A stretch of 64,000 nucleotides of DNA, taken from an uncultured virus (IMG/VR IMGVR_UViG_3300028840_004242) (taxonomy: Duplodnaviria > Heunggongvirae > Uroviricota > Caudoviricetes). The notes beneath the pieces were generated by a model, which searched no databases, was not told where the DNA came from, and worked only from the letters and a program-made list of their open reading frames with translations. The stretch's first letter is position 1. Each line of letters starts with the position of its first letter. Of this stretch, positions 19,311-35,500 are shown one piece after another. The position numbers and the translations under genes were made by a program. The DNA is taken from the IMG/VR virus record IMGVR_UViG_3300028840_004242, positions 1 to 64,000 of that record. One strand, 5' to 3'.

Positions 19311-20573
19311 ATGAAAATTGCAATCATGACAACATTTCAAGAGTTTCAACCAGGTTACAGTCTTACGGGTATTGTTAAGGATCAGGTAGAGATGCTCGCT
19401 CGTTATGACCATGAAGTTCACCTTTTTGTAAATGAAAGGTATCATGGAGAGGACTTTCCAGGTAACGTACAATTAAGGAAGGAAATACCTTTTACTCACC
19501 TCAAAGATTATCATTCTGTGAGGGACCTGTCAGACGAGCATAAGATTATCAAAATTGAGACAGCCAAAAGGTTCGTCAAGATACTCGGTGAAGAGGAATT
19601 TGATGTAGTTTATACTCATGACTTTGTTTTCATTGGTTGGAATATGCCTTATGGTGAAGCTATAAAGGAAGCTACTTCCAATCTACCAAAGGTAGTGTGG
19701 ATGCACTGGATACACAGTATCCCTTCAGGTGGTCCACGAGATTGGTGGAATATAGGGGAATACGGTCCAAATCATAAACTCATCTATCCAAACGAAACTG
19801 ACCGTATTAGGGTAGCAGAGCACTATAAGGGGCAGATTCATGATGTTCGTTGTATACCTCACATTAAAGATATCCGTACATGGTTTGAATTTAGTGACGA
19901 CACCAAGAGGCTGATTGATAAATATCCAGGCATACTGAGTGCAGAATTCGTTCAATTACTACCTGCTTCAGTAGATCGACTGGCAGCCAAAAGGTTGCGT
20001 TATGTAATGAGTATCTTTGCTGAGCTTAAAGCTCATGGAAGAGAAGTGTTCCTTCTCGTAGCTAATCAGTGGGCTACTGGTAAACAACAGAAAGAAGATA
20101 CTGATAAATATAGACAACATGCGATAATGAAAGGATTGATTGATCAAGTAGACTTCGCCTTTACCAGCGACTTCGAGAGCCCCAAGTTTGATGTAGGCAT
20201 TCCCCAGTATATGATCCGTGAGCTGTTTCTCTGTAGCAACCTGTTTATCTTCCCCACTAGGGAAGAGTCTTTTGGTCTTGTAGTACCAGAGGCGGCTTTG
20301 TCTGGAACCTATATGGTGCTAAATAAGTCTTTGCATCAGCAAATAGAGATTACTAAGGCCAATTGCCTCTATTTTGACTTTGGTAGCTTTAGTCATGATT
20401 TAAAGATTGAAGATCCAGATAAATTCTTTCGTGATGTAGCTTTTATCATCATAGGCAGATTTAAAGAGAATGAGGCATTGAAAATCAAGACACACTGCCG
20501 CAGAACCTATAATTATGATAATCTTTACCGTAAGTACTACGCACCCACAATGCAGGAGTTAAAATATAGATGA
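19311..20573 (+). CDS. Glycosyltransferase, GT-B fold (GT4-like)
   Basis: LFIFPTREESFGLVVPEAALSG (E-x7-E motif). Confidence 0.85.
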   Translation: MKIAIMTTFQEFQPGYSLTGIVKDQVEMLARYDHEVHLFVNERYHGEDFPGNVQLRKEIPFTHLKDYHSVRDLSDEHKIIKIETAKRFVKILGEEEFDVVYTHDFVFIGWNMPYGEAIKEATSNLPKVVWMHWIHSIPSGGPRDWWNIGEYGPNHKLIYPNETDRIRVAEHYKGQIHDVRCIPHIKDIRTWFEFSDDTKRLIDKYPGILSAEFVQLLPASVDRLAAKRLRYVMSIFAELKAHGREVFLLVANQWATGKQQKEDTDKYRQHAIMKGLIDQVDFAFTSDFESPKFDVGIPQYMIRELFLCSNLFIFPTREESFGLVVPEAALSGTYMVLNKSLHQQIEITKANCLYFDFGSFSHDLKIEDPDKFFRDVAFIIIGRFKENEALKIKTHCRRTYNYDNLYRKYYAPTMQELKYR

Positions 20574-21154
20574 GAAATTGGTACGAGAGTAAAAGAGTTA
20601 AAGGACTAAAGGCTCTTATCAGTCATGAACTCGACAGCTTCCCTATAATACAGAAGGTGGTAAGGGATAGTAAGTTTAAGGTAATAGTGGAGTTGGGTAC
20701 TTTTTATTATGGACTTACCTTGTTATTGCATGAGGCTGATCCTAAGGCTACTCTTTTTACCTTTGACAATATGGATGCTAGGACGAGTTTAGTACGTGCT
20801 AAAGGTAAAGTCACTAAGGAGGATTTGGAGTTCCTTATAAACCATGGTTTTGGTAAGAGGGTATCCTTTATAAGGTCAGATGTTATAGACAGGAAGAATA
20901 TCATGCTGTCAGCCTTACTTGAAAGACCTGAAAAGAAACTCCTTTATTGTGATAATGGTAACAAGGACAGAGAAATCTGTTATTATGGTAAGCTGTTAAA
21001 TAAAGGAGATGTGATGGGTGTTCATGATTGGGGATATGAAGTTCATCCTGAGAATCCTTGCGTTAAAGAGGTGCTTGATATGTTCAGAGGACATCCAGCT
21101 AATACTCATCTTAAACTTAAAAGCTGTACCACTCGCTTTTTCATAAAGGAATAG
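20570..21154 (+). CDS. Class I SAM-dependent methyltransferase (CmcI/Methyltransf_24-like)
   Basis: VIVELGTFYYG motif I-like segment; LLNKGDVMGVHDW. Confidence 0.65.
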   Translation: MRNWYESKRVKGLKALISHELDSFPIIQKVVRDSKFKVIVELGTFYYGLTLLLHEADPKATLFTFDNMDARTSLVRAKGKVTKEDLEFLINHGFGKRVSFIRSDVIDRKNIMLSALLERPEKKLLYCDNGNKDREICYYGKLLNKGDVMGVHDWGYEVHPENPCVKEVLDMFRGHPANTHLKLKSCTTRFFIKE

Positions 21155-21155
21155 T

Positions 21156-21878
21156 ATGAGAGTGCCCTTGGGAATTATAACGTACCAACGTCCTGACTAC
21201 TTAGGCAGAACACTCACTTCCTTCTTTAATGTTAATTATGATTGCTTAGAAGAATTTAGACCAGTAGTGGTGCTTGTGCAGGGCATGGATGACGCTACGA
21301 TGAGAGTTCTAGATAGGTTTAAAGAGAGAATAGATAGGATTATTTCCCTTAAAAGTAATCATGGTTGTGCTTGGGGTTATTCCCTTTTAAATCAAGAGCT
21401 TTTAGAAGAAGGTACGGATCTTGTAATGCACTTACAAGATGATTGGTTAAGTACGGAGCCTATTACTCACTACCTTTATGAGGATGACTTCTCTGGATAT
21501 AAAAATAACAAAGGTATCTTTCAACTGTTTGAAGAAAGGGAGGATGTTGGGTATGCACGGCTTAGGTCGGCTACGTGGAGCAAGGTGAGTATTGTAAATA
21601 GAATCTCTAAAAAGACTATCAAATGGAAGAAATGGGATACCAAGTTCAATAAGTACTGTCGTATTGTTATTGGTAATGCTCATTTTACCTTTAATCCTAC
21701 TATCATTAGAACCTCCGTTTTAAAGCGTATGCTACCTGTAACTGAAGAGCACGATGCGATGGAGAAATATCATAAATTAGGTTTACTTGCTGGTCAGGTG
21801 AGAGGAAACTGTTTTATGCACATAGGAGAAGAGAGGGCTACAACAGAAATTAGGGGAAAGGATAGGTGGGTAAGATGA
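21156..21878 (+). CDS. Glycosyltransferase, GT-A fold (GT2-like)
   Basis: IITYQRPDYLGRTLTSF N-terminus; MHLQDDW DxD-like motif; FMHIG. Confidence 0.75.
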   Translation: MRVPLGIITYQRPDYLGRTLTSFFNVNYDCLEEFRPVVVLVQGMDDATMRVLDRFKERIDRIISLKSNHGCAWGYSLLNQELLEEGTDLVMHLQDDWLSTEPITHYLYEDDFSGYKNNKGIFQLFEEREDVGYARLRSATWSKVSIVNRISKKTIKWKKWDTKFNKYCRIVIGNAHFTFNPTIIRTSVLKRMLPVTEEHDAMEKYHKLGLLAGQVRGNCFMHIGEERATTEIRGKDRWVR

Positions 21879-22579
21879 GTAGAAAGAAGAAACCTACCCC
21901 TTTCTCTATACAGTTAAAGAAATGGTATCCTAGGATGGAAGATAGATCCTCCATCATTCATAAGTTTATTTCTATTCACATACCAAGAACAGGAGGGACT
22001 ACTTTTCGCAACCTTCTGTTTTATTGGTATGGTATTTTAAATGTGCTTCATGATGAAACAAGTAAGAGGTATATTCCTGATATAATAAAAGCCTCTCCTC
22101 CTCCTAATGCTACTCTATTTGACATAATACATGGGCATTTTCATCATACTAAGTATGATTATTTAGGATTGCCTATGGTCACATGGGTAAGGAATCCTAT
22201 AGATATGGTTGCAAGTCAGTTCTATTCTCTTAAAATTCATAATACTACTGCCAGGTCTCCAGAAATACACATAAAGATAATAAAGGAGGAGATGACTCTA
22301 ATAGATTTTGCTAGGTACGAAGGCACTCGTAATCCTATTAGTAAGTTTATTGGAGGAACAGATTTAGATAAATTCGACTTTATAGGCATAACAGAGTATT
22401 ACGATGAGAGCTTACAGAGATTTGGTAAGTGGAGTGGTATGCCTATTCCAAATGCTTATCCTATTTATAATTTTAGAGACTACCCGGAGATAAGTAAAAA
22501 GGAAAGAGATATAATCGGAAAATACAATAAAAAAGATCTAATAATATATGATGAAGCGGTTAAGAGGTTTGCACCTTGA
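21866..22579 (+). CDS. Sulfotransferase (Sulfotransfer_2-like)
   Basis: 5'-PSB loop IHIPRTGGTTF; 3'-PB motif VRNPIDMVAS; FDFIGITEYYDESL. Confidence 0.8.
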   Translation: MGKMSRKKKPTPFSIQLKKWYPRMEDRSSIIHKFISIHIPRTGGTTFRNLLFYWYGILNVLHDETSKRYIPDIIKASPPPNATLFDIIHGHFHHTKYDYLGLPMVTWVRNPIDMVASQFYSLKIHNTTARSPEIHIKIIKEEMTLIDFARYEGTRNPISKFIGGTDLDKFDFIGITEYYDESLQRFGKWSGMPIPNAYPIYNFRDYPEISKKERDIIGKYNKKDLIIYDEAVKRFAP

Positions 22580-23715
22580 GGTTGATTTTCTTATTTAATA
22601 GTGATGGAGCAGCACAAGAAGGATCTAATGTGCCTTGGGATCCTCACGCTCAATCTAATAATTTTTATGCTACAGGTGAAAATGGATTGCCTAGCGAAGG
22701 GTACCTGTATATGCTCCGCGAAATGCTTAATCAGGGTATAATAGATGACCTTCTTATTTTTATCGAATCCTCTCGCAGTCCAGGTTATACCACTTATTTT
22801 AATCATGTTAAGTGTTATGTAGTTCCTGAGATAGGATATGCACATCAGTTCTTGAGATCAGATGATATAATTTGGGCAAGAGGTGGATTTAGAAGTTGGT
22901 TTAACTTTTTAAACCGTATGAAGAAAGAAAGGCGTTGGTTGCTGGTTTACGCAGCCAATACAGGTAGGGCACGGTGGAAGTTCTGGGACGTTGTTTTTGA
23001 CGACCTTTATGGGAAGCATCGTTATGATTCCCGAGGTAGATTTTTTTACTACTTCAAAAAGCCTATAAATCCGGATTACTTCCGGCCTCTTCCTGATATT
23101 AAGAAGAGGTATGATATCTGCGTTGGTGCATCGCACGTCCACGACAAGAAAGGTCAGTGGAAAACCATTGAGGTCATCGCGGAGTATAAAAGGCTTTTTA
23201 ATCAAGACCTCCACTGTATAATGCCAGGTCGTGTAACTCACGGGGTCAAAACAAACCAGATAGGTTCAACTATAAATAGTGCCCGTCTGTCAGTACACTG
23301 TCCTGGTATGCTCCACCGCACAAAGGTGGCTGAGGTTTTAAACCAAAGCCACCTTTCTGTCTTTATGGGACAAGGCGGGCAGAATGATAGGGGTCCAATA
23401 GAATCGCTGGCCTGTGGAACTCCTATACTCTTGGCGGGGACTGCCCGCCATTGTCCTTCTATTTGGAAAGATAATCCTTTTTGTCATGTATCTTCAAACC
23501 CTGATGATATAAGCAGCATAGCTCATGAACTTAGGAATGCAATCCTTACCTTCCGTAAAAAGGGAATAAAGCAGAGGTGTTATGATGATTTTCAAAAGCG
23601 TAATGGTCTTTATGATGTAATATTACCTGAAATGGAAAGACTGTTCCGTGTAATTAGAAAGAATCCTAAACCAGATATTCAACCTTTAATAAAGGAATAT
23701 ATTGAAAATGATTGA
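22576..23715 (+). CDS. Glycosyltransferase, GT-B fold
   Basis: KKGQWKTIE; NDRGPIESLACGTPIL (E-x-x-A-C-G-x-P). Confidence 0.75.
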   Translation: MRLIFLFNSDGAAQEGSNVPWDPHAQSNNFYATGENGLPSEGYLYMLREMLNQGIIDDLLIFIESSRSPGYTTYFNHVKCYVVPEIGYAHQFLRSDDIIWARGGFRSWFNFLNRMKKERRWLLVYAANTGRARWKFWDVVFDDLYGKHRYDSRGRFFYYFKKPINPDYFRPLPDIKKRYDICVGASHVHDKKGQWKTIEVIAEYKRLFNQDLHCIMPGRVTHGVKTNQIGSTINSARLSVHCPGMLHRTKVAEVLNQSHLSVFMGQGGQNDRGPIESLACGTPILLAGTARHCPSIWKDNPFCHVSSNPDDISSIAHELRNAILTFRKKGIKQRCYDDFQKRNGLYDVILPEMERLFRVIRKNPKPDIQPLIKEYIEND

Positions 23716-24301
23716 TTTAAGAACAATGTATAAAGGAAGATATTTTGCAAGAAGAAGCAGTTTAGAGTGGAGAGCAAAGGCTGTATGTGATGCTATTTGT
23801 AAAGTATTAGATCCTAAATCTGTGATAGATGCAGGGTGTGCTGTTGGAGATCTAATAAAAGAGTTTGACAAAAGAAAGATAATGTGCTATGGGATAGAGG
23901 GTACGGATAATGTAGTTCCCTACCTTTTGGTTCCTAAAGATAAAGTTTTCATCAAAGACCTGAGACTTCCACTTAACTTAGGTCTAAGTTTTGATCTTGC
24001 AATTTGTTTAGAGGTAGCAGAGCATATAGATGAAGAGTGTGCAGATCAATTTGTTGAGAATTTAACCAATCTCTCCAAAAGAGTTCTAATTTCAGCCGCT
24101 CCTCCTGGACAAGGAGGTCACGGTCATGTCAACTGTCAGCCTTACACCTATTGGGTATTCAAGTTTGTTAATAGAGGTTTTATTAACGGGCAATCTATTC
24201 AGGATAGAGTAAAGAATCTGTTAAAACCTTGGAAAGACAAGAAAGGAATCAAAGCCTATTACGATAACATGATGTATTTTGAAAGGATAAAGCCGTTTTG
24301 A
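23702..24301 (+). CDS. Class I SAM-dependent methyltransferase
   Basis: VIDAGCAVG; FDLAICLEVAEHI; GQGGHGHVNCQ. Confidence 0.85.
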   Translation: MKMIDLRTMYKGRYFARRSSLEWRAKAVCDAICKVLDPKSVIDAGCAVGDLIKEFDKRKIMCYGIEGTDNVVPYLLVPKDKVFIKDLRLPLNLGLSFDLAICLEVAEHIDEECADQFVENLTNLSKRVLISAAPPGQGGHGHVNCQPYTYWVFKFVNRGFINGQSIQDRVKNLLKPWKDKKGIKAYYDNMMYFERIKPF

Positions 24302-24927
24302 GGAAGTTTGTTTTTGTTCATATACCTAAATGTGGAGGCACTTCTTTTAATATTACGGTAAGGGAAAAGTTTAAAGATAAGATATTTAGGGATCGTCATT
24401 TTAGGAAAGACAGATACTTGGGAATGATAAAATTTACTGATAGGTCTGAAAAGGGTTACCCTGGTGGTTTTGACGAAAACTACCATGTAGGCGTTATTGG
24501 TCATTTTACAGCCAATAAGTATAAGCATTTAGGGTGGCCTATGATTACTTTCCTTAGGGATCCTGTAGACAGATTGATTTCCTATTACTCTGTTTGGAAG
24601 CACGGGGCTGAGGGAATTAAATCAAAGAATATATTTTGGTTCGCCCGTCAATTTCCTAACTATATGCATCTAATGACAGGCGGGGATTTAGATCAATTTG
24701 CTTTTGTAGGTATTACAGAGAGGCATGAAGAAAGTATGAGAATAATAGAAAAGATTTTGGGATTTGAAATCATACATAAGATGCATGCCAACAGAACTCC
24801 TGGTAGGAAGAAGTTTAGGTTTAGTGGACGTACCAGGAGAATACTTGATGAAATAAATCAAGAGGATAGAAGTATTTACAATGAGGCATTAAGTAGGTTT
24901 GATATAATGGCTCAAAGATATCTATAG
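24298..24927 (+). CDS. Sulfotransferase (Sulfotransfer_2-like), second copy
   Basis: FVHIPKCGGTSF; FLRDPVDRLISYY; FAFVGITE. Confidence 0.85.
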   Translation: MRKFVFVHIPKCGGTSFNITVREKFKDKIFRDRHFRKDRYLGMIKFTDRSEKGYPGGFDENYHVGVIGHFTANKYKHLGWPMITFLRDPVDRLISYYSVWKHGAEGIKSKNIFWFARQFPNYMHLMTGGDLDQFAFVGITERHEESMRIIEKILGFEIIHKMHANRTPGRKKFRFSGRTRRILDEINQEDRSIYNEALSRFDIMAQRYL

Positions 24928-24935
24928 GAGGTATC

Positions 24936-25664
24936 ATGATAGATGTTACAATCACAGCTTGCAGAAGGCGTGAATTACTATTCAAGACTCTTAATTCTTT
25001 TTTAGAAAACCTTTTATGGAACCATGACTTTAGAATTATTATTAATGTGGATCCTGTAGGAGTAAATGAGGACAGCTATAAGTCGATAGAATTATGCTAT
25101 TGGTTCGCAGAACCCGTTATTGCTCGCTGTCCAGCAGAGCCTAATTTTAGTGATGCTTTTAAGTGGTGTTGGGATCAGGTAGAAAATAATTGGATCTTAC
25201 AACTGGAAGACGATTGGGAATTGTTGCAAAGGGTGGACTTACGACATATGATGGGAATATTAGAATCATATCAAGATCTTGCACTTCTGCGCCTACCTCA
25301 GTTTAAGTGTGGCAAGGATGGTATGAAGAACTGGGATCGTTGGTTTCCCTGGAATGGCACTTATTATGAATGCCCAGAGGAAATTAAACAAGCAGTAGGT
25401 TTCTGTGGTCATCCTTCCCTTATAAAGGGATCCTTCGTTAAAGCCTGTCGCCAACATCTACTCACCGATCGTAATCCTGAAAAGCAATTTCATGGGGGTA
25501 ATGAAGCATTGGTAAACGAGGTGATGCATTGGAAGTATGGGGTATATGGTCATCCAGGAGAGCCTAATTATATACGAGATATGGGGAGGGAGTGGGCTGT
25601 TAAGAATGGATGGAAAAAGAAAGGTAATAAAGCTCACTTTATGATATGGGAAAAGGAAGAATGA
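24936..25664 (+). CDS. Glycosyltransferase, GT-A fold (GT2-like)
   Basis: VTITACRRRELLFKTLNSF; LQLEDDW; similar layout to the 21156 ORF. Confidence 0.75.
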   Translation: MIDVTITACRRRELLFKTLNSFLENLLWNHDFRIIINVDPVGVNEDSYKSIELCYWFAEPVIARCPAEPNFSDAFKWCWDQVENNWILQLEDDWELLQRVDLRHMMGILESYQDLALLRLPQFKCGKDGMKNWDRWFPWNGTYYECPEEIKQAVGFCGHPSLIKGSFVKACRQHLLTDRNPEKQFHGGNEALVNEVMHWKYGVYGHPGEPNYIRDMGREWAVKNGWKKKGNKAHFMIWEKEE

Positions 25665-26572
25665 AGGTACTTTATCTTTTTCACAAAGGAGCGAATGGAT
25701 ATTATCTTGAGAATGTAGTAAGGGAAATGAATTTATTTCCAGATATATCTTCCTCCATAGTTTACTTTTCAAGATTTAAGGAAAGTATGTTAGAGGAAGA
25801 TTATGATGTACTTATTTATGAAACTTTTCCTGATGAGTACAATCCTAAAAAGTTTAATAAGGAAACGGTGGACTATTTTGATAACATATTCTTAAAGTTT
25901 AAAGGGGTTAAGATACTACACGACACCCATGATGATGGTAACAAGGATGGATACACTAGATTTGATGATATAACTCCTTACCCTCCAGTTATAAAAGCAT
26001 TTACAGGTAAGTACTACCCTAAAATTGATTATGTAATATTGAATACCAGTTTAAGTTTGTCTGATGCTAAGGTGTATAGAGATGAATTCGATAGGGACAT
26101 TTCAATAAGTTTCAAGCATGGTCAAATAGGAGTTGAATATTATCCTCATTATGTTAGGGAGTCGGTTCGTAAAATATTGAAAGTTAATAAAGATCTTCCT
26201 GATGTTAGTTATAAAAGGGTGGAAGGTAGAGAGAATTATATTCAAGAATTAAGAAGAACTCTAATAAGTGTGGGCTGCTGTGGTTTTGGACAGTATTCAG
26301 GATCTTACGCAGATTGCTTAAAAGCTGGTGCTTTGCTGTATGCTCATTGTTCCTTGGAGGATATCCACTTTCTGCCTAATGAAGATTTAGTAGATGGGGA
26401 AGATTATATATCTTGGAACTCCCATAATTTTCATTCTAAACTTAAATGGTTATTAGATAATCCTTTATTGATAGATCGGGTTAGGAAGAATGGGAGAGAA
26501 AAGTTCAAGAAATCTTTTAGCTATGATAGGTCTGCAATTAAATTGATAAATTATTTAAAGAAGGAGGTATGA
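25646..26572 (+). CDS. Glycosyltransferase, GT-B (Glyco_trans_1_2/CgeB-like C-domain)
   Basis: LVDGEDYISW...LKWLLDNP...RVRKNGRE C-terminal pattern; likely ATG start at 25661. Confidence 0.65.
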   Translation: MGKGRMKVLYLFHKGANGYYLENVVREMNLFPDISSSIVYFSRFKESMLEEDYDVLIYETFPDEYNPKKFNKETVDYFDNIFLKFKGVKILHDTHDDGNKDGYTRFDDITPYPPVIKAFTGKYYPKIDYVILNTSLSLSDAKVYRDEFDRDISISFKHGQIGVEYYPHYVRESVRKILKVNKDLPDVSYKRVEGRENYIQELRRTLISVGCCGFGQYSGSYADCLKAGALLYAHCSLEDIHFLPNEDLVDGEDYISWNSHNFHSKLKWLLDNPLLIDRVRKNGREKFKKSFSYDRSAIKLINYLKKEV

Positions 26573-26573
26573 A

Positions 26574-27449
26574 ATGAATTATTGCAATCCAGAAGGTTTC
26601 CGTAATGAGATTAAATTATTAAGGGAACAGGGAAGAGATAAGTTCTTTAGTTGGTTTGATGGACCTAAAGGTGAAAATGAAACTACGGATGCGGCTTTTG
26701 AAAAGGCAGAGGATGTTTTCAACAGGCTTATGCTTCCAAGTGCCAAAAAGTATCTTAAGAAACTTAATACCAAGACTTCTTTAGATATAGGTTATGGAAG
26801 TGGTGGACAAGTTTTGGCTGCCTCATTGTATTTTGACAAGGCATATGGTTTAGATGTTCATGAAGAAGCCGACTTTGTTATGGAAGAACTCAATAAGAGG
26901 GGAATTAAGGACGAAGAGGTAGAATTAGTAGTAGGAGATGGTAAAACAATTCCACTTCCAGAAGAGAGTATTGATTTTGTCCACAGTTGGGTTACGTTTA
27001 TGCACTTAGGAACGGTGGAAAATATCAGAAATTATTTGAAAGAGGTTTACCGTGTTATGAAACCAGGAGGAGTTGGAGTAGTTTTCTTTTCCAGAATGCT
27101 AAGGTCAGCTCTTCACCAGCCTTGGTCTGAGGTACTGAAAGACATCGAAAAGGAGAAAGAAGGACCAGGATATCGTGAAGGCGGACCTAAAACTAAAGTT
27201 CGTGGCATTAACATACAGATGTCAATGTGGTATATGGAAGACTTGGCAAAGAGTACAGGATTTGATTTATTAGATAGAACGGGGTCCTGGGATATGATAC
27301 ACAAGCGCAGGTATTTTTTTGGTCAGTATGGTATCGTATTTAGAAAACCCTCTACCAAATCTTCTACCACTTCTAAAAGTGTATCAAGCACAGATGTTGA
27401 AAGTACTCCAGCAAGACCCAGAAGGAAATTGTTTAGTGGAAATAAATAA
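26574..27449 (+). CDS. Class I SAM-dependent methyltransferase (type 11)
   Basis: LDIGYGSG; IPLPEESIDFVHS; EVYRVMKPGG. Confidence 0.88.
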   Translation: MNYCNPEGFRNEIKLLREQGRDKFFSWFDGPKGENETTDAAFEKAEDVFNRLMLPSAKKYLKKLNTKTSLDIGYGSGGQVLAASLYFDKAYGLDVHEEADFVMEELNKRGIKDEEVELVVGDGKTIPLPEESIDFVHSWVTFMHLGTVENIRNYLKEVYRVMKPGGVGVVFFSRMLRSALHQPWSEVLKDIEKEKEGPGYREGGPKTKVRGINIQMSMWYMEDLAKSTGFDLLDRTGSWDMIHKRRYFFGQYGIVFRKPSTKSSTTSKSVSSTDVESTPARPRRKLFSGNK

Positions 27450-27475
27450 AGCATAGTGAAGCATTAAGCAAGCAC

Positions 27476-27499
27476 AGTTCGTGCAGAATTCGTCAAATA
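27476..27499 (+). promoter_or_regulatory. Conserved intergenic motif, copy 2 (AGTTCGTGCAGAATTCGTCAAATA)
   Basis: Near-identical to 4277-4300. Preceded by AGCATTAAGCA, as is the minus-strand copy near 48500. Confidence 0.6.
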
Positions 27500-27526
27500 T
27501 CAGCGTCAATTTTAACGTGTAATTAC

Positions 27527-28543
27527 ATGACTTTACGACAATCTCGCAGGAGAAGAAAGGAATACGATAAAATGGCAGAACTTTCAGTAATTATACCGTA
27601 TGTAAATGAATATCCACAGCTGATATTCACTTTGCAATCCATCGCAGGAGAGCTGCGTGACAGGGTAGACTTCGAGATCGTAGCAGTAAACAATTATTGT
27701 GATCAATTTGTGAATCAAAGAAAGACTCAGAACCTACCTTGGGAAGAGGATAAGGGAGCCGAAGCCATTAAAGCTACAGCTCAGAAACAGAACCCATGGT
27801 TGAAACATGCAGAGTATTCTGAAAGGCTGTCCCATTGGAATGCCAAAAGGGTGGGTGTTAAGCACAGCACTGGTGATTATTTATTTTTTGTGGATTCACA
27901 CGTTATCCTTGCTCGTGACAGCCTTTATGGTATGCTCCAGTACTATAAGCAGAATGAGGAAAAGATAAACGGATCAATGCACTTACCACTCACTTATAAA
28001 ATATTAGAATCTCGTAGGTTGATATACAAACTTAATGTTGAGTGGTTTGAACATGGGTTACTTGACTACAAATTCACACCCTGTCGTGTAGACAAAGGAG
28101 ATCCTTTTGAGGTTCCCTGCATGAGTTGTTGTGGAGTACTCGTATCAAGAAAAGTATATGAAGCATTAGGAGGTTGGTCTCCTGAGCTTGGTATATATGG
28201 AGGAGGTGAGAACTTTTTTAATTTTACCCTATCCGTTTTGGGAATGAATAAATGGATCTATCCTAATGGTACTTGTTTCCATCATGGTGAAAGGAGAAGC
28301 TATCATTACCTTTATGATGACTATGTACGCAATAAGCTCATCGCTTGTTACCTTTATGGAGGAAGGGATTATGCACTCAAAGCTATTAATGGGGGTCTCA
28401 AGGGGAAACCTGAAGTTCTTCACTCTATTTATAGGAATGTAGACCTGAAATGTCGCCGCCACAGAGATCATATTCAAAGGCGTCAAAAGGTCAGTATAGA
28501 GGATTGGGTAAAGAAGTGGATGCCCCCAGACGCTTCTGCCTGA
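27527..28543 (+). CDS. GT-A glycosyltransferase with polypeptide GalNAc-transferase (GT27)-like motifs
   Basis: SVIIPYVNE; FFVDSH (DxH); ALGGWSPELGIYGGGENFF...CFHH. Likely ATG start at 27572. Confidence 0.8.
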   Translation: MTLRQSRRRRKEYDKMAELSVIIPYVNEYPQLIFTLQSIAGELRDRVDFEIVAVNNYCDQFVNQRKTQNLPWEEDKGAEAIKATAQKQNPWLKHAEYSERLSHWNAKRVGVKHSTGDYLFFVDSHVILARDSLYGMLQYYKQNEEKINGSMHLPLTYKILESRRLIYKLNVEWFEHGLLDYKFTPCRVDKGDPFEVPCMSCCGVLVSRKVYEALGGWSPELGIYGGGENFFNFTLSVLGMNKWIYPNGTCFHHGERRSYHYLYDDYVRNKLIACYLYGGRDYALKAINGGLKGKPEVLHSIYRNVDLKCRRHRDHIQRRQKVSIEDWVKKWMPPDASA

Positions 28544-29151: not shown

Positions 29152-32100
29152 ATGAGACTTGTAAAATCAGAAGAACAAAACCCTCAGGATTATTTTCTGC
29201 AAAGTGGAGTCGATGAACAGGGTGATCCGATTTACAAAGATGTAAATCAAGAAGTCACAGACTATGCACCCGCCAAGGCTTTCCGCAAAAAGGTGTTCGA
29301 TGGGACTGCCGACATCGTGGTCCTGTCGAACACGATTCAGATTTATTGGAAAGGTAACCTTGTAGCTGAAGCCCAGCTTGAAGGGCAGGTAGAAATATCA
29401 CCCAACAACTGGCAAGGGCAGTTGTTTTCTTTTGCTGATTCCAACGTGCAGAAGATAACTGAGATTGAAACAGACGAAGGTACGGTTCCAGTGACTCCAT
29501 TTTTCAGGTGTTATGTAGTCAAAGACATTCCGGCACTTGGTATAACTGATGCGGTTTTCGGCATGGATGTTCACTGGGCTTTTAAAAACACCAAGCTATC
29601 GTTTTATCTGGACACGCCAGGTTTCAATGCCCGAATCCGTTGGCAATGTAGGGTTAAGGATTCAGCTTTGCGATGGGTTGATGAATCTGATCCATTGTTT
29701 CCTGTTGTTCATAAAGGCTTGTGGTTTTCTGTTTCAGACTATGAGGGCAATGTCAATCATGGATCACAGGGAGACCCAGAACCAGGATGGACTCAGCATT
29801 GGTGGACATTTGAGCCGGATGGAAAACAAATAGACGTTGCAGACGCAAGGACTCCACTTGAACGCTATGAGCAAGGCGTGGGGCTTGTGGTTGATCCGTA
29901 TTTGTCAATCGAAGAATCCGGCAGCACAGTAACAGTTTATTGTGATGGATTTAGTATATTATTTGATCCGACAGAAACTGGTGGTTTAAATTGTGACAAC
30001 AATAGTGCGACTACATGGAATTATTATTATCCCGCTCAAGTCGTTGTTTCTTCAGGTGTCTACAATTTAGGATACGACCCAAATTCAATTATAGAAATAA
30101 TTGAATCAAATGCAAACAGGGTAGTTTTGAGATTTAGAGGAAACTTTTATAATTCAACTCCTACTGTATTGACCAATTCAGATTCCATTGAAATTTATCT
30201 TTATATTTATTCAGACCGTATTGTGCAGCACAGTAAATGGATAACTTCTGGTGGAAATATTAGTATTGATAGCAATGGTCAAAATGGCTTCCCTATGAAT
30301 TATATAGGAAGTGGAGTTTTAACGAACGATACAGCAATTTATGAAAATGGTGGCTCTGAATCAACAGGTACAGGAGAGCATGGGAGTGCTGACTATGTTG
30401 GAATTGATGCTGATGAGCTGGATCATATTTTAATTAACTTATCGGAATCATCAACAGGAGGCAGTTTAAGCCAATATCATAGTAGTACAAGGCAATATCG
30501 AATAGGGTGGGATAACTGCACTATTGAGCCAGGTACACATGAGATTGTAAATGTTTGGATATTTGATACAGAAGACCGCGAAGGCTCCACAAAAATCTAT
30601 GACTCCACTGACCGCCTTGCAATGGGTGATCAATATAAAGACGCCATCTTGGATCAAAGCCCAAGCAAAGGTGATGATGTCACCGACATGATTTTACCGG
30701 CAAGGATTTCAAGCGGCACCCTGCATTCAGATGGAGCACACCATTATGAGGTGGATACAAACGATGCAGTTAAATTGACTTTAGATACAACCCGCATACG
30801 CCCTGCATTTGCAATTCATGATTGGCCTTTTCAGTATGGAACCGTGGCAAGCCCGACAGATATTTTGCTGTGCCATTTAAAATGTGATGAGAACGCCGCA
30901 AGCCCCACTCTTACAGATCAAACTGCAAACAATGCAGATGGCACTTGGAGCAACATTTCAGATGGAAGTGACAGGAATACCAACACAAGTGGAGATTCTG
31001 TTCAGGTGTTTGGCAGGGGTAGGAATTTGGATACTCAGGACGGTGCTGGACATATTGAAATGACATTTGGAAGCGGGACTGTACATGATAATGCGTTTTT
31101 TTGTCGTGGGTCACTTATGATAAAACTTTTACCCCAATTTGATTATGATACAGTTGATGGACAAGGTCTTTTTGAACTCTACATAAGTAGTGATGATTAT
31201 TTTACATGCATTTATAATCCAACGCCTGATAATTGGAATACAGGTGGTTCCGTTGGAGGATCAGCTATTTGGCAAGGTTCAGCACCACAAACTTATGATA
31301 ATTATAGTCTTAAAAGATGTCATGTGATTTTATTTTCATGGGATCTTTTAAGGCATGAGTGGTTTATTTTTTATGATGGGGTATGTGCAGCAAGTAAAAT
31401 TAATACTGGAACAGCTGGATCAGGCGATCCTGTAAATTTCGAGATTGGTTCAAGAATAAATCGTACTTATCCTGCTGATATAATCATTGACGATGTCAAA
31501 ACCTTTAGTGAGTGTCTGCTGCCCTTCGGTGCCTACTTCATCGGCAACGGCGAAGGGCTGTTGGCAGACATTAACAACCCACATGCTGATTTGACTTTTT
31601 TCTGGGATTGTCAGGCATCAGGGGCGGGGGCAGCCAAGGGTGGTGCAAACCTCGGCACGAATTATACAGTCACCCTGAATGGGTCAGGTGTGCTGACAAC
31701 CGCCGATAAGATTATTGGAACAAAAAGTTTTGACACTACGGCAGAGGGGAGCCACTCAGCTTCATTTTCAATAGATGCAAATAATTTTGATGGCAGCTAT
31801 GGGCGAATAGGTATGTGGGTTAATTTTCAGACTGTCACAGCATCCAAGTACTTTTTAGGGTTTGGAGATGCAACAGATTATATAGATTTGTATATAAGTG
31901 CGAGCAGTTATTTCTATGCTATCTGGCAATCTGATGGAGTAACAAGATATTTGGCAAGCACATTAACGCCAACAGCAGGAGTATGGTACTGGGTTGAACT
32001 TGCTTGGGATGATTCAGATTATATAGATTTCTATGTAAATGGAATCTTATTAGATCATGAAGATTCAGGTGGAAGTTGGTCAAAGACGACAGGAACAATG

Positions 32101-32241
32101 TATCTGGGTGCAGATGAAAGTGGAGCAAATTCTGCTGACTGTCTGATCGGGGCTTTTTATATAACCAAGGACAGATTTACACCACAAATCTGGACGGCAT
32201 TTGGCAAGCCGCTGCATGTGCCGCTGGTGGACTTACAATGA
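29152..32241 (+). CDS. Large virion-associated protein with LamG/ConA-like domains
   Basis: Two LamG-like C-terminal domains (GRIGMWVNF...WYWVELAWD...FYVNG; IIIDDVKTF). Confidence 0.65.
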   Translation: MRLVKSEEQNPQDYFLQSGVDEQGDPIYKDVNQEVTDYAPAKAFRKKVFDGTADIVVLSNTIQIYWKGNLVAEAQLEGQVEISPNNWQGQLFSFADSNVQKITEIETDEGTVPVTPFFRCYVVKDIPALGITDAVFGMDVHWAFKNTKLSFYLDTPGFNARIRWQCRVKDSALRWVDESDPLFPVVHKGLWFSVSDYEGNVNHGSQGDPEPGWTQHWWTFEPDGKQIDVADARTPLERYEQGVGLVVDPYLSIEESGSTVTVYCDGFSILFDPTETGGLNCDNNSATTWNYYYPAQVVVSSGVYNLGYDPNSIIEIIESNANRVVLRFRGNFYNSTPTVLTNSDSIEIYLYIYSDRIVQHSKWITSGGNISIDSNGQNGFPMNYIGSGVLTNDTAIYENGGSESTGTGEHGSADYVGIDADELDHILINLSESSTGGSLSQYHSSTRQYRIGWDNCTIEPGTHEIVNVWIFDTEDREGSTKIYDSTDRLAMGDQYKDAILDQSPSKGDDVTDMILPARISSGTLHSDGAHHYEVDTNDAVKLTLDTTRIRPAFAIHDWPFQYGTVASPTDILLCHLKCDENAASPTLTDQTANNADGTWSNISDGSDRNTNTSGDSVQVFGRGRNLDTQDGAGHIEMTFGSGTVHDNAFFCRGSLMIKLLPQFDYDTVDGQGLFELYISSDDYFTCIYNPTPDNWNTGGSVGGSAIWQGSAPQTYDNYSLKRCHVILFSWDLLRHEWFIFYDGVCAASKINTGTAGSGDPVNFEIGSRINRTYPADIIIDDVKTFSECLLPFGAYFIGNGEGLLADINNPHADLTFFWDCQASGAGAAKGGANLGTNYTVTLNGSGVLTTADKIIGTKSFDTTAEGSHSASFSIDANNFDGSYGRIGMWVNFQTVTASKYFLGFGDATDYIDLYISASSYFYAIWQSDGVTRYLASTLTPTAGVWYWVELAWDDSDYIDFYVNGILLDHEDSGGSWSKTTGTMYLGADESGANSADCLIGAFYITKDRFTPQIWTAFGKPLHVPLVDLQ

Positions 32242-32555
32242 GCAAAGGAAAATGGAAAATATATTACACCGACAGTAGCTTTAACGACGAACAGGGCTCC
32301 CCTAGGGAGGCACCGTTCTGGGACGTGCAAGACATTATTCAGTATGATTTGCACACCGAGAGAAAATATCACCAGAACGGTAGCGACTGGTATATTTTCC
32401 AAGACGGCTTCTGGGTGGGTGTGGACATGATAGGTTTAATTGACTACATGGCACATTATAAGGGAGAAATAATCGTGAAGGCGGGGCGCACCATACCCTC
32501 TAAACAATGGCAAAAAATATTCGATACGGCAAGGAAAGACCCGTACATTAAATGA
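32238..32555 (+). CDS. Hypothetical protein
   Basis: ATGA-coupled to the upstream gene; its stop overlaps the start of the next gene. Confidence 0.55.
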   Translation: MSKGKWKIYYTDSSFNDEQGSPREAPFWDVQDIIQYDLHTERKYHQNGSDWYIFQDGFWVGVDMIGLIDYMAHYKGEIIVKAGRTIPSKQWQKIFDTARKDPYIK

Positions 32556-35500
32556 CAAATCCAATTTATACACAGGAGGACTTTCAGGGCTACAAAGACG
32601 ATGCCGTTCCTGGTAGCGCAACCACGAAAGCCTCGCTTAATAATGATTGGACGCAGAATACTGATGAGAACTTCCGCATCCGTTTTGCCGTTGTGGAGTC
32701 GAACAACAAGGCGGAAGCTAACCCGATGTTCGAACTGGAATACCGCTACGATTCCACCGGCACGGGGTCAAGCTATGGCTCTTGGACTCAAGTAACAACC
32801 ACATCAGTCGAAATAGCCTTCTCGACTACCACCTACTATACTGACGGCGACCTTGACAATAACAAGCGGGTTTATGACGGAGGTGCATCGTCCAGCGGAG
32901 ATTTCGGTGAGCTGAGTGACGGCGCAACCAACGACACGATTGCTGACACCATCGACTTCGGGGGAAATGAGTTCTGTGAGATGGAGGTCTGCCTCCAGAT
33001 TAATTCTGTGAACGTTGTCAATGGTGGTTTGATACAGGTTAGGGTTAAAGACCCGAATTTATCGACATTTGACGAGACGCCCACGATCACGATTTCCTCG
33101 CCTACCACTACCACGAGTACTACCACTACCACCTTTAGTACTACAAGTACCAGCACCTATTCAACCACAAGTACCAGTACAAGCACTCAAACAAGTACAA
33201 GTACCAGCACTCAAACAAGTACAAGTACCAGCACCTATTCTACCACAAGCACCAGTACAAGCACCTACTCAACTACCAGCACAAGCACCAGCACTTTCAG
33301 TACAACCACTACCTTTAGTACAACTAGTACTACAACTACCGAACCTCCTTCTACTTGTAATATACAACAGTATGGAGGTACTAATAATTATCAACTAGTA
33401 TGGTTGCCTGGTGGTGAAATATTAATAACCACTGATGATGAACTTACAGCCTCAGAAACTTTGGAGTTCCTATTAGAGTGTGAAGGGGAGGCTGCTACTA
33501 CCACTACCACTACCACTACTTTTACTACGACCAGTACAAGTACCAGCACCTACTCAACAACCAGCACCTATTCTACCACCAGTACAAGTACCAGCACCTA
33601 TTCAACTACCAGCACCTATTCTACCACCAGTACTTCTACTAGTACCTATTCTACCACCAGTACTAGCACTCAAACAAGTACCAGCACTAGCACCTTAAGT
33701 ACAACCAGCACCAGTACCAGTACAAGCACTTCAACCTATTCAACCACCAGTACAAGCACCAGCACTTCTACCAGTACCTATTCAACTACCAGTACAAGTA
33801 CCAGTACAAGCACCAGTACCAGCACATACTCAACCACAAGTACCAGTACCAGTACAAGTACCAGTTCCTATTCAACTACCAGTACAAGTACCAGAACAAG
33901 CACAAGTACTTCAACCTATTCAACCACTAGCACATCTACTAGCACAAGTACTTCAACCTATTCAACCACAAGTACCAGTACCAGCACTAGTACATATTCA
34001 ACCACAAGTACCAGTACCAGCACAAGTACCAGCACATACTCAACAACCAGCACAAGCACCAGCACATACTCAACCACCAGCACCAGCACTAGTACATATT
34101 CAACCACAAGTACCAGCACTAGCACAAGCACCAGCACATACTCAACCACAAGTACAAGTACCAGCACAAGCACCAGCACATACTCAACAACCAGTACCAG
34201 CACAAGCACCAGTACCAGCACATACTCTACTACAAGTACCAGTACCAGCACAAGCACCAGTACCTATTCAACCACAAGCACCAGTACCAGTACTTCTACC
34301 AGCACATACTCAACTACAAGTACCAGTACCAGCACAAGCACCAGTACCTATTCAACCACAAGCACCAGCACATACTCTACCACAAGCACTAGTACCAGCA
34401 CATACTCTACCACAAGTAGCAGTACCAGCACATACTCAACTACAAGTACCAGTACCAGTACCAGCACCAGTACATACTCAACAACCAGCACTTCTACCAG
34501 CACATACTCAACAACCAGTACCAGTACAAGCACCAGCACCAGTACATACTCAACAACCAGCACCAGCACCAGCACCTATTCAACCACAAGTACCAGTACA
34601 AGCACCAGCACCAGTACATACTCAACAACCAGCACCAGCACCAGCACATACTCAACCACAAGTACCAGTACCAGTACAAGCACCAGCACATACTCTACCA
34701 CAAGTACAAGTACTAGTACATATTCAACCACAAGTAGCAGTACCAGCACTTCTACCAGCACATACTCAACAACCAGCACTTCTACCAGCACATACTCAAC
34801 AACCAGCACAAGCACCAGCACATACTCAACCACAAGTACCAGTACCAGCACAAGTACCAGCACATACTCTACTACAAGTACCAGCACCAGCACATACTCT
34901 ACTACAAGTACCAGTACCAGCACAAGCACAAGCACCAGCACTTTCAGTACAACTAGTACCTTCAGTACCACTACAACTACAGAACCAGGAGAAACTACCA
35001 CCAGTTCCACAACTACTACTTCCTTTACAAGCACCAGCACCAGCACATACTCAACTACCAGCACAAGCACCAGCACATACTCAACCACAAGTACCAGTAC
35101 CAGTACCTACTCTACCACAAGTACCAGTACCAGCACAAGCACCAGCACATACTCAACCACAAGTACAAGCACTAGTACATATTCAACCACCAGCACATCT
35201 ACTAGTACAAGCACTTCAACCTATTCAACCACAAGTACCAGTACCAGTACAAGTACCAGTACCTATTCAACCACAAGCACCAGTACCAGTACTTCTACCA
35301 GCACCTACTCAACAACCAGCACATCTACTAGTACAAGCACCAGCACATACTCTACTACAAGTACCAGCACCAGTACTTCTACCAGCACCTACTCAACAAC
35401 CAGCACCTACTCTACTACAAGCACCAGCACCTACTCAACAACCAGCACATCTACTAGTACAAGCACCAGCACATACTCTACTACAAGTACCAGCACCAGT

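What the first reader, a model, noticed from the sequence alone, without database searches (positions are those of the whole stretch)
27527..28543. Phage glycosyltransferase with the motif architecture of eukaryotic polypeptide GalNAc-transferases (GT27)
Seen: SVIIPYVNE...TLQSI, LFFVDSH and VPCMSCCGVLVSRKVYEALGGWSPELGIYGGGENFFNFTLSVLG...YPNGTCFH. Known: ppGalNAc-Ts, which start mucin O-glycosylation on Thr/Ser, have SVII.F.NE, a DxH metal motif (FLDSH) and the Gal/GalNAc-T motif (P.MAGG.F...YF..LG.YD.GM.IWGGEN.E.S...W..GG.....P...V.H). The order and spacing match; there is no ricin lectin domain or TM anchor. Inference: this is the initiating enzyme for the poly-Thr substrates.
Basis: partly seen in the sequence, partly recalled or inferred. 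Interest (0 to 1): 0.85.

Follow-up and report, generated by a model that had tools for sequence, protein, structure and literature searches.

The report
Phage GalNAc-transferase-like enzyme, poly-threonine virion proteins
An uncultured 88-kb phage encodes a small soluble enzyme shaped like the animal enzymes that start mucin sugar coats, inside a sugar-building gene block that travels with virion proteins ending in threonine runs, so the phage probably sugar-coats its own particle, though no sugar has been measured.

Summary

The phage genome has exactly five Ser/Thr-dense proteins, all structural. Across non-duplicate viral loci holding relatives, 34 of 59 have Thr-rich ORFs within 10 kb, against 2 of 80 random loci. 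Capsid relatives with poly-Thr tails carry the enzyme. Complete tail-less relatives lack it.

The claim that it is the initiating enzyme is only partly supported. A generic GT4 co-travels in 53 of 67 loci. However, one complete phage has the GT27-like gene and Ser/Thr proteins with no GT4.

No biochemistry exists, and the donor sugar is unknown. Sequence similarity to GT27 is weak (14-20% identity), so this is a GT27-like sister clade and not a proven member. The scan has reached the same reading on at least eight other phage genomes. I found nothing in print.

The parts
27572..28543 (+). GT27-like GT-A glycosyltransferase, 323 aa (the longest ORF starts at 27527)
27584..27610 (+). SVIIPYVNE, the first strand of the nucleotide-binding half; pairs with SIIIPFHNE of GalNAc-T10
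27893..27901 (+). DSH = DxH metal motif (D108 and H110 from Met16), invariant in 43 of 43 members
   Evidence: PMC7185993 passages
28199..28213 (+). GGGEN = Gal/GalNAc-T motif core (E213 invariant; the next residue is N, Q or H, never Asp)
28274..28297 (+). CFHHGERR: invariant H237 aligns with the His of GT27's VGH[VI]F (C-terminal metal ligand); R242 is invariant
19311..20573 (+). GT4 (GT-B) glycosyltransferase, first gene of the cassette and constant partner of the GT27-like gene
20570..21154 (+). cassette ORF of unknown family
21156..21878 (+). GT-A-like protein, paralog of 24936..25664 (same BLAST cluster)
21866..22579 (+). weak sulfotransferase-like ORF (PF03567, E 0.019)
22576..23715 (+). 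GT-B-like protein (weak PF00534); cluster present in 38 of 69 loci
23702..24301 (+). methyltransferase; cluster present in 42 of 69 loci
24298..24927 (+). sulfotransferase-like protein (PF03567 E 1.6e-6; phrog_3347)
24936..25664 (+). GT-A-like protein; cluster present in 42 of 69 loci
25646..26572 (+). weak Glyco_trans_1_2-like ORF
26574..27449 (+). Methyltransf_11 methyltransferase
150..1478 (+). major head protein ending ...TSTTTTTSSSTTTTTTA (candidate acceptor)
2150..2815 (+). head-region protein ending ...TTTTTTTYTTTTTTTA (candidate acceptor)
5126..5746 (+). protein ending ...NTTTYTTTTTTTA, upstream of 5779..6231 and the tape measure gene; tail tube by position only (candidate acceptor)
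16079..19249 (+). 1056-aa tail-region protein with two long Ser/Thr repeat blocks (candidate acceptor)
32552..37507 (+). 1651-aa protein with about 1280 residues in Ser/Thr-dense repeats of 14-residue period (candidate acceptor)

Best explanation
The gene encodes a cytoplasmic, lectin-less, anchor-less GT-A glycosyltransferase. It belongs to a large phage-borne family that is the closest structural relative of the eukaryotic GT27 polypeptide GalNAc-transferase catalytic domain. Proposed mechanism: it binds a UDP-sugar and Mn2+ through D108-x-H110 and H237. Like GT27, it has no Asp base after the conserved Glu (GGGE-N). It therefore most likely transfers the sugar with retention directly onto Thr/Ser hydroxyls of the disordered poly-Thr/Ser tails and repeats of this phage's own virion proteins: the capsid, two small head/tail proteins and two giant repeat proteins. 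The neighbouring GT4, GT-A and GT-B enzymes, methyltransferases and sulfotransferase-like proteins would then extend and decorate the glycan, giving a mucin-like coat. Shown here: the fold, the motif correspondence, the cassette, and its co-variation with Ser/Thr-rich virion proteins. Inferred: the donor sugar, the stereochemistry, that the acceptor is protein, that this enzyme acts first, and the biological benefit.

For: Motifs. D108, H110, G211, G212, E213, H237 and R242 are invariant in 43 of 43 members. Profile alignments put DxH on GT27's DSH/DAH and H237 on the His of VGH[VI]F in TgGalNAc-T3 and PGANT9. PMC7185993 (passages) states that DxH in place of DxD is specific to GT27 and GT60, the polypeptide Ser/Thr O-glycosylating families, and that the C-terminal His binds the metal in GT27.

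Context. The complete 87.8-kb phage has exactly 5 Ser/Thr-dense ORFs, all structural, with one GT27-like gene and one GT4.

Co-occurrence. Thr-dominant dense ORFs lie within 10 kb in 34 of 59 non-duplicate GT loci against 2 of 80 random viral loci. C-terminal tails occur in 19 of 59 against 0 of 80 (looser criterion 41 of 67 vs 11 of 80).

Capsid natural experiment. Of 47 capsid-relative loci, 28 are tailed, 14 tail-less, 4 cut and 1 broken. Among records at least 90% complete, tailed ones carry the enzyme in 4 of 5 (own genome, G015-G017; in G008 the cassette is cut by the contig end). Tail-less ones carry it in 0 of 2, and they also lack the GT4.

Against: No glycan, activity or expression data exist. 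Sequence similarity to GT27 is marginal (best E 7.2e-6; profile E 1e-4 to 5e-3, interleaved with TarP and TarS; 14-20% identity). The single-sequence alignment to T12 shifts the HHG region by two residues relative to the profile alignments (vs 46). I could not inspect the metal-site geometry of the model.

The enzyme is never clearly alone. The GT4 co-travels in 53 of 67 loci. Where both are present, the GT4 is the first cassette gene in 47 of 52 and the GT27-like gene is last in 44 of 52. G021 still has two other GT-A enzymes beside it.

26 of 67 GT loci show no Ser/Thr-dense ORF within 10 kb. Some fragmentary records have the GT4 and Ser/Thr ORFs but no GT27-like gene (L212/L219, L216, L247, L273).

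Tail presence follows capsid phylogeny: all but one relative at 58% identity or more are tailed. The co-variation may therefore rest on only one or two evolutionary events. From recall, GT27 itself includes isoforms that prefer already glycosylated peptides.
Confidence: 0.58

Rival explanations
1. The cassette does glycosylate the Ser/Thr tails, but another enzyme attaches the first sugar. That could be the GT4, as GtfA does on serine-rich repeat adhesins, or one of the GT-A paralogs. The GT27-like enzyme would then extend or cap the glycan, or fill in further sites on already glycosylated tails.
For: The GT4 is present in 53 of 67 loci and is the first cassette gene in 47 of 52. The GT27-like gene is last in 44 of 52. 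Minimal cassettes still hold both genes (L018, L036, L038, L040, L043, L048). GT4 relatives occur with Ser/Thr ORFs on records where no GT27-like gene was found. From recall, GT4 GtfA and SdgB are known protein O-GlcNAc transferases, and some GT27 isoforms prefer glycopeptides.
Against: The GT4 model is closest to small-molecule, lipid and sugar-acceptor GT4s. GtfA and SdgB rank 34 and 36 with no score gap. The A2 profile finds no PDB sequence at E <= 0.01. Complete phage G021 has the Ser/Thr ORFs and the GT27-like gene but no GT4 relative and no GT-B enzyme. Fragments G020 and G022 show only GT27-like GTs beside Ser/Thr ORFs. The records that lack the GT27-like gene are 18-74% complete, or are cut off within 4 kb of the GT4.
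Confidence: 0.22
2. The enzyme and its cassette do not act on virion proteins. They would modify a host envelope polymer or lipid carrier (as prophage TarP or Gtr systems do) or phage DNA, and the Ser/Thr-rich proteins are merely neighbours in the late operon.
For: TarP, TarS and other wall-polymer GT2s appear among weak sequence hits. Pfam files the protein only under GT2. The phage has a DNA-modification-type gene elsewhere, a queuine tRNA-ribosyltransferase-like ORF at 54492..55679. Phage GTs are known to modify DNA and host serotype (passages of PMC12619734).
Confidence: 0.1

Closest known systems
CAZy GT27 UDP-GalNAc:polypeptide alpha-N-acetylgalactosaminyltransferases (human T2, T4, T7, T10, T12; mouse T1; fly PGANT9; Toxoplasma T3)
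   Different: Only 14-20% identity and marginal sequence E-values. No ricin-type lectin domain, no signal anchor, presumably cytoplasmic. One extra Gly in the motif (YGGGEN). Encoded by phages of prokaryotes. Donor sugar and activity unknown.
Mycobacteriophage virion glycosylation (Che8, Corndog; Freeman et al. 2023, known to me only through citing passages in PMC12619734, PMC10877033, PMC11256854 and PMC4351075)
   Same: Phage-encoded GT plus O-methyltransferase cassette in or near the structural genes. Glycans are reported at the C-termini of capsid and tail-tube subunits. Here the capsid and a positionally inferred tail-tube protein end in poly-Thr tails.
   Different: No detectable homology. 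tblastn of this enzyme against 50,697 deposited phage records finds one distant hit, an Acidobacteria phage at 23.5% identity, and no mycobacteriophage. The cassette here is larger and includes sulfotransferase-like genes. The acceptors include giant Ser/Thr-repeat proteins.
CAZy GT60 polypeptide alpha-GlcNAc-transferases (Pfam PF11397 'GlcNAc')
   Same: DxH motif and polypeptide Ser/Thr (or Hyp) O-glycosylation, and the same GT-A clade as GT27 according to PMC7185993. From recall, some members are soluble and lectin-less. Several structurally similar uncultured-phage proteins in BFVD are annotated 'Glycosyltransferase, GlcNAc'.
   Different: No PF11397 match in this genome at E <= 1, and none among the 17 Pfam families matched by the 43 members. 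No GT60 structure appeared among the listed fold matches.
GtfA/GtfB O-GlcNAcylation of serine-rich repeat adhesins; SdgA/SdgB (GT4)
   Same: Cytoplasmic glycosylation of long Ser-rich repeats by a multi-GT locus that contains a GT4.
   Different: The GT4 here is not specifically GtfA- or SdgB-like (ranks 34 and 36). The system is viral. The constant, distinctive enzyme is the GT27-like GT-A.
Generic bacterial GT2 enzymes (SpsA, K4CP, heparosan synthase, TarP/TarS, WrtF)
   Same: GT-A fold and a PF00535 match.

Membership tests
CAZy GT27 (polypeptide GalNAc-transferases) | GT-A catalytic domain with the GT27-specific elaborations, superposable over its full length | tested here: met
CAZy GT27 (polypeptide GalNAc-transferases) | DxH metal-binding motif in place of DxD | tested here: met
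   D108 and H110 are invariant in 43 of 43 members and align with DSH/DAH of T10, T7 and TgT3. Clade specificity per PMC7185993 passages.
CAZy GT27 (polypeptide GalNAc-transferases) | C-terminal His as third metal ligand | tested here: met
   Invariant H237 aligns with the His of VGH[VI]F in TgGalNAc-T3 and PGANT9. The phmmer alignment to T12 is shifted by two residues. The geometry in the model could not be inspected.
CAZy GT27 (polypeptide GalNAc-transferases) | Gal/GalNAc-T motif (WGGEN) with Glu and no Asp base after it | tested here: met
   YGGGE[NQH] with E213 invariant, with one extra Gly relative to WGGEN. The reading of 'no Asp base = retaining' rests on PMC7185993 passages and on recall.
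CAZy GT27 (polypeptide GalNAc-transferases) | C-terminal ricin-type lectin domain | tested here: not met
   The 323-aa protein ends with the catalytic domain. Pfam shows no lectin domain in it, in the 43 members, or in 9 longer relatives.
CAZy GT27 (polypeptide GalNAc-transferases) | Type II membrane anchor / Golgi-lumen topology | tested here: not met
   The highest 19-residue hydropathy mean is 1.02, and the protein starts directly with the first beta-strand.
CAZy GT27 (polypeptide GalNAc-transferases) | Significant family-level sequence similarity | tested here: inconclusive
   Best E 7.2e-6 (T10). With the profile, 7 of the top 8 hits are GT27 but at E 1e-4 to 5e-3. Identity is 14-20%. PF02709 matches only 2 of 43 members, at E >= 0.055.
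CAZy GT27 (polypeptide GalNAc-transferases) | UDP-GalNAc donor and alpha-O-linkage to Ser/Thr of polypeptides | not testable with these tools
   Needs enzyme assays and glycopeptide MS.
CAZy GT60 / Pfam PF11397 (polypeptide GlcNAc-transferases) | Match to the family's Pfam model | tested here: not met
   No match in the whole genome at E <= 1. PF11397 is not among the 17 families matched by the 43 members at E <= 1.
CAZy GT2 / Pfam PF00535 | Match to PF00535 above the curated cut-off | tested here: met
   E 5.4e-10, 39.9 bits vs cut-off 23.3. All 43 of 43 members match. From recall, this Pfam model also covers GT27 catalytic domains, so it does not discriminate.
CAZy GT2 / Pfam PF00535 | Inverting mechanism with the xED Asp base | tested here: not met
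   The residue after the conserved Glu is N, Q or H in the family, never Asp.
Phage virion O-glycosylation system (Che8/Corndog type) | Phage-encoded GT and methyltransferase genes plus Ser/Thr-rich C-terminal extensions on capsid and tail-tube subunits | tested here: met
   Cassette at 19311..28543. Capsid and two further small structural-region proteins end in poly-Thr. The tail-tube identity of 5126..5746 is by gene position only.
Phage virion O-glycosylation system (Che8/Corndog type) | Homology of the enzymes to the mycobacteriophage ones | tested here: not met
   tblastn against 50,697 phage records gives 1 hit and no mycobacteriophage.
Phage virion O-glycosylation system (Che8/Corndog type) | Glycans detected on virion proteins | not testable with these tools
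   The phage is uncultured, known only from metagenome contigs.
GtfA/GtfB-type serine-rich-repeat glycosylation | Initiating GT4 specifically related to GtfA or SdgB | tested here: inconclusive

The most novel reading that the evidence does not exclude
Tailed phages of anaerobic-sediment bacteria carry a large, old sister clade of the GT27 catalytic domain that starts true mucin-type (alpha-HexNAc-O-Thr/Ser) glycosylation in the bacterial cytoplasm. The result would be methylated and possibly sulfated mucin-like coats on capsids, tails and fibres. Mucin-type O-glycosylation would then not be a eukaryotic invention. The minimal lectin-less enzyme would be either the ancestral form or an ancient viral capture, and a ready soluble tool for making mucin-type glycoproteins in bacteria.
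Probability: 0.2. Interest if true: 0.9.

Novelty: new variant of a known kind. Interest (0 to 1): 0.68.

Why it matters
From recall, GT27 enzymes are treated as a eukaryotic hallmark. A soluble, 323-residue, lectin-less relative that is widespread in phages would bear on where mucin-type O-glycosylation came from. The family has 786 representatives at E <= 1e-3 in the exhaustive search.

It would also extend virion glycosylation, so far shown only in mycobacteriophages, to a different enzyme lineage and to a much broader set of uncultured phages. The implications cover particle stability, adhesion, and escape from recognition.

In practice, a small cytoplasmic polypeptide O-glycosyltransferase with simple poly-Thr acceptors would be attractive for bacterial glycoengineering. 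The claim is directly testable with recombinant protein and synthetic peptides.

Tried and rejected

Complex prediction: not run. The tool's own text says an enzyme-substrate pair is rarely worth a job, and low-complexity tails are poor targets.

PqqD-fused relative P0239: no genomic context was found in genome, viral or metagenome contigs. Only its domain architecture is used.

PHROG scan of the small poly-Thr-tailed ORFs and the giant proteins: no informative family. The tail-tube assignment of 5126..5746 therefore stays positional.

GT4 profile against PDB sequences: 0 hits.

PADLOC and NCBIfam were not scanned.

Freeman 2023 (PMC10527164) is not held.

Literature searches for a phage or prokaryotic GT27-like enzyme or poly-Thr virion glycosylation found no such report. 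Subscription journals and supplements are not covered.

Rejected: a membrane-bound or secreted enzyme (no hydrophobic segment).

Rejected: a cellular (MAG) origin of the family. The 8 MAG contigs carry the same phage cassette with tail genes.

Rejected: repeat slippage as the sole source of the Ser/Thr arrays. DNA repeats are only 65-88% matched although the protein pattern is kept.

Reciprocal search from the GT4: it showed tight coupling (52 of 79 loci, most of the others truncated) but could not order the two enzymes.
Full report
OBSERVATION

The ORF 27527..28543 (+) is real and gives 338 aa. SVIIPYVNE lies at 27584-27610, DSH at 27893-27901, VPCMSCCG at 28112-28135, GGGEN at 28199-28213 and CFHHGERR at 28274-28297.

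The true start is probably Met16 at 27572, giving 323 aa. Three things point that way. The public gene call for the identical protein is 323 aa (P0001). The 42 aligned homologs start at the equivalent position. A purine-rich AGGAG...AAGGAA stretch precedes that ATG.

There is no membrane anchor: the highest 19-residue hydropathy mean is 1.02. Pfam reports only PF00535 (E 5.4e-10) and, below its cut-off, PF10111, so there is no lectin domain.

The resemblance is not chance. phmmer against 177,635 distinct PDB sequences ranks polypeptide GalNAc-T10 first (E 7.2e-6, query residues 14-239). That alignment pairs SVIIPYVNE with SIIIPFHNE, FVDSH with FLDSH, and the VPCMS...IYGGGEN stretch with PVMAG...IWGGEQ. 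GalNAc-T12 and T4 follow, with the wall-teichoic-acid enzyme TarP between them and a noise hit at E 0.53.

THE FAMILY

The protein belongs to a large, essentially unannotated family. There are 679 proteins at E <= 1e-3 among near-length candidates. In an exhaustive profile search of 1.84 billion representatives there are 786 at E <= 1e-3, 226 at E <= 1e-10 and 120 at E <= 1e-30.

In an alignment of 43 members, the residues D108, H110, G211, G212, E213, H237 and R242 (numbered from Met16) are invariant.

Among 50,697 deposited phage genomes, only one carries a detectable relative: an Acidobacteria phage at 23.5% identity. In IMG/VR there are 69 loci. The 8 hits in prokaryotic MAGs carry the same phage cassette with tail genes, so they are phage DNA.

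AlphaFold2 on the 43-sequence alignment gives a confident model (mean pLDDT 94.9, pTM 0.92).

- Foldseek against the PDB lists only GT27 enzymes through rank 50: human T2, T4, T7, T10 and T12, mouse T1, fly PGANT9 and Toxoplasma T3, at E 2e-16 to 3e-12.

MOTIFS

Profile alignments place the family's DxH on DSH/DAH of GalNAc-T10, T7 and TgT3. They place the invariant H237 on the His of VGH[VI]F in TgGalNAc-T3 and PGANT9. The single-sequence alignment to T12 is shifted there by two residues, so this equivalence holds at alignment level only.

The Gal/GalNAc-T core is YGGGE[NQH], one Gly longer than WGGEN. The residue after the Glu is never Asp.

Passages of PMC7185993 state three relevant things. 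Replacing DxD with DxH is specific to GT27 and GT60, the two families that O-glycosylate polypeptide Ser/Thr. The C-terminal His binds the metal in GT27. The Asp of xED is the base of inverting enzymes and is often missing in retaining ones. On that basis I infer a metal-dependent, probably retaining transferase of the GT27/GT60 lineage.

The enzyme is not a GT60 member by Pfam. PF11397 finds nothing in this genome at E <= 1, and nothing among the 43 members.

Strict GT27 membership is not established either. Sequence E-values are marginal (1e-4 to 5e-3 with the profile), identity is 14-20%, and the lectin domain and membrane anchor are absent.

CONTEXT IN THIS PHAGE

The window is 64 kb of a complete 87,830-bp phage genome with terminal repeats. 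It encodes a major head protein, a tape measure protein, and a DNA polymerase with clamp and clamp loader.

The gene closes an approximately 9-kb block, 19311..28543, on the structural strand. The block holds a GT4, two paralogous GT-A-like proteins, a GT-B-like protein, two methyltransferases, two sulfotransferase-like proteins and two weakly typed ORFs.

Genome-wide there are exactly five Ser/Thr-dense proteins, and all are structural:
- the head protein, ending TSTTTTTSSSTTTTTTA;
- ORF 2150..2815, ending TTTTTTTYTTTTTTTA;
- ORF 5126..5746, ending NTTTYTTTTTTTA. It lies upstream of 5779..6231 and the tape measure gene, where a tail-tube gene normally sits. This assignment is positional only, since one search found no family;
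- a 1056-aa protein;
- a 1651-aa protein with long repeats.

The repeat DNA has a 42-nt period but only 65-88% matches. The protein pattern is therefore conserved beyond recent slippage.

COMPARATIVE TESTS

1. Enrichment. In viral loci holding a relative (own phage excluded), a Ser/Thr-dense ORF (at least 10 of 12 residues) lies within 10 kb in 41 of 67, and a C-terminal tail in 23 of 67. In random viral loci drawn with an arbitrary 14-mer the figures are 11 of 80 and 1 of 80. I then required Thr-dominant runs and removed 8 near-duplicate loci. That gives 34 of 59 against 2 of 80, and 19 of 59 against 0 of 80 (Fisher 4e-14 and 1e-8). Two caveats apply: the loci are related to one another, and the controls are not matched to structural modules.

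2. Cassette. Unbiased clustering of all ORFs in the 69 loci finds a core of the GT27-like gene (69 loci), GT4 (55), methyltransferase (42), GT-A paralogs (42) and GT-B-like (38). The variable middle holds GT2-, GT9- and GT1-like transferases, two other methyltransferase types, a hexapeptide acyltransferase, an RmlD-like reductase, a UDP-sugar dehydrogenase and a radical-SAM/SPASM protein. In the 52 loci with both genes, the GT4 is the first cassette gene in 47 and the GT27-like gene is last in 44. In the other 8, a GT2-like or RmlD-like gene follows it. The span is 2.4-10.9 kb. Ser/Thr-tailed tail genes usually lie just upstream.

3. Capsid natural experiment. Of 47 loci with relatives of this capsid protein, 28 end in a Ser/Thr tail (436-499 aa) and 14 end right after the conserved core (400-415 aa). 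Four are cut by contig ends and one frame is broken. Among records at least 90% complete, tailed capsids go with the enzyme in 4 of 5: the own genome, G015, G016 and G017. G008 carries the GT4 only 3.8 kb from its contig end and no GT27-like gene was found in it. Tail-less capsids go with the enzyme in 0 of 2 (G011, G012), and those two also lack the GT4. A 79%-complete record with a tail-less capsid at 60% identity also has neither gene. Tail presence largely follows capsid phylogeny, so the number of independent events is small.

WHICH ENZYME ACTS FIRST?

The GT4 co-travels in 53 of 67 loci. A reciprocal search from the GT4 finds the GT27-like gene in 52 of 79 loci. Most of the remaining 27 are cut soon after the GT4, or lie on contigs that hold the gene further away. 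Whole-record searches of nine others found it once, and eight of those nine records are 18-74% complete.

Four observations favour the GT27-like enzyme as the protein-acting step.
- It alone resembles enzymes whose solved members all act on polypeptides.
- The 100%-complete phage G021 has two Ser/Thr-rich ORFs directly upstream of the GT27-like gene. It has no GT4 relative and no PF00534 match, only two further GT-A enzymes.
- A distant family member fuses a PqqD domain (Pfam E 1e-10) to the same catalytic domain with all motifs intact. From recall, PqqD is a peptide-binding element of peptide-modifying pathways. The alignment is 23% identical at E 2e-23. Its genomic context could not be recovered.

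None of this is proof. I put direct Ser/Thr glycosylation by this enzyme at about 0.58, a downstream role within the same pathway at about 0.22, and a non-virion acceptor at about 0.1.

WHAT IS KNOWN

Virion glycosylation by phage-encoded GT/O-methyltransferase cassettes is established for mycobacteriophages, with glycans at the C-termini of capsid and tail-tube subunits. I could not read Freeman 2023 itself. I rely on passages in citing papers: PMC12619734, PMC10877033, PMC11256854 and PMC4351075. Those enzymes are not detectable homologs of this one.

The BFVD library of viral models holds only generically annotated relatives from uncultured phages.

Six literature searches found no report of a GT27-like enzyme in phages or prokaryotes, and none of poly-Thr virion tails as its acceptors. 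The library lacks most subscription journals.

Within this scan, eight earlier AI notes on other phage genomes reach the same reading. They are unchecked and are not counted as evidence here.

VERDICT

This is a real, well-supported GT27-like phage glycosyltransferase in a conserved virion-glycosylation cassette. It is a new variant of known kinds: phage virion glycosylation, and GT27/GT60-type polypeptide O-glycosylation. Activity, donor sugar and order of action remain untested.

Noticed in passing
window 21866..22579 and 24298..24927: Two sulfotransferase-like ORFs inside the glycan cassette (PF03567 at E 0.019 and 1.6e-6; phrog_3347 'galactose-3-O-sulfotransferase'). Relatives occur in only 3 of 67 other loci. 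This hints at a sulfated glycan, which would be unusual for a phage particle.
   Followed up: partly
window 54492..55679 (-): Queuine tRNA-ribosyltransferase-like gene (phrog_887, E 8e-37) in the replication module. From recall, genes of this kind often mark 7-deazaguanine DNA modification in phages.
   Followed up: no
window 29152..32241 and 14220..16097: A 1029-aa protein just after the enzyme ends in a Laminin_G_3/ConA-like lectin domain (E 1.6e-9). A 625-aa tail-region protein carries a chitobiase/hexosaminidase C-terminal domain (E 2.6e-12). Both are glycan-binding-type modules next to the glycosylation block.
   Followed up: no
window 32552..37507: The 1651-aa protein is about 78% Ser/Thr-dense repeat with a Tyr or Phe every 6-14 residues (14-residue period) and a non-repetitive C-terminal region of about 140 residues. 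Its DNA gives the window's extreme GC skew (-0.55 at 34-36 kb).
   Followed up: partly
P0239, P0122, P0123 (database proteins): Fused forms of the family. P0239 has a PqqD domain followed by the GT27-like domain. P0122 and P0123 have an ordinary GT2 domain, itself with a DSH motif in P0122, followed by the GT27-like domain.
   Followed up: partly
L066, L010, L050, L058 (viral loci): Tandem duplications of the GT27-like gene: three copies in L066 and two in L010, L050 and L058. In L010 the two copies flank a methyltransferase and sit between two Thr-rich ORFs with no other GT nearby.
   Followed up: partly
L032:3559-4509 and 7 other loci (cluster c30): A radical-SAM/SPASM enzyme recurs inside the cassette in 8 loci, next to Ser/Thr-rich proteins. 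From recall, SPASM enzymes usually modify peptides.
   Followed up: no
L028:11001-11450 and 25 other loci (cluster c7): A protein of about 150 aa with no Pfam family lies directly beside the GT27-like gene in 26 loci. In the minimal cassettes it is the only gene between the GT4 and the GT27-like gene. It is absent from this window.
   Followed up: no
Genome-contig loci L190-L197: Four of the eight MAG contigs holding the cassette are binned as Deltaproteobacteria, Desulfobacteraceae or Thermodesulfobacteriota, and two as archaea. This gives a weak hint at sulfate-reducer hosts in sediments.
   Followed up: no
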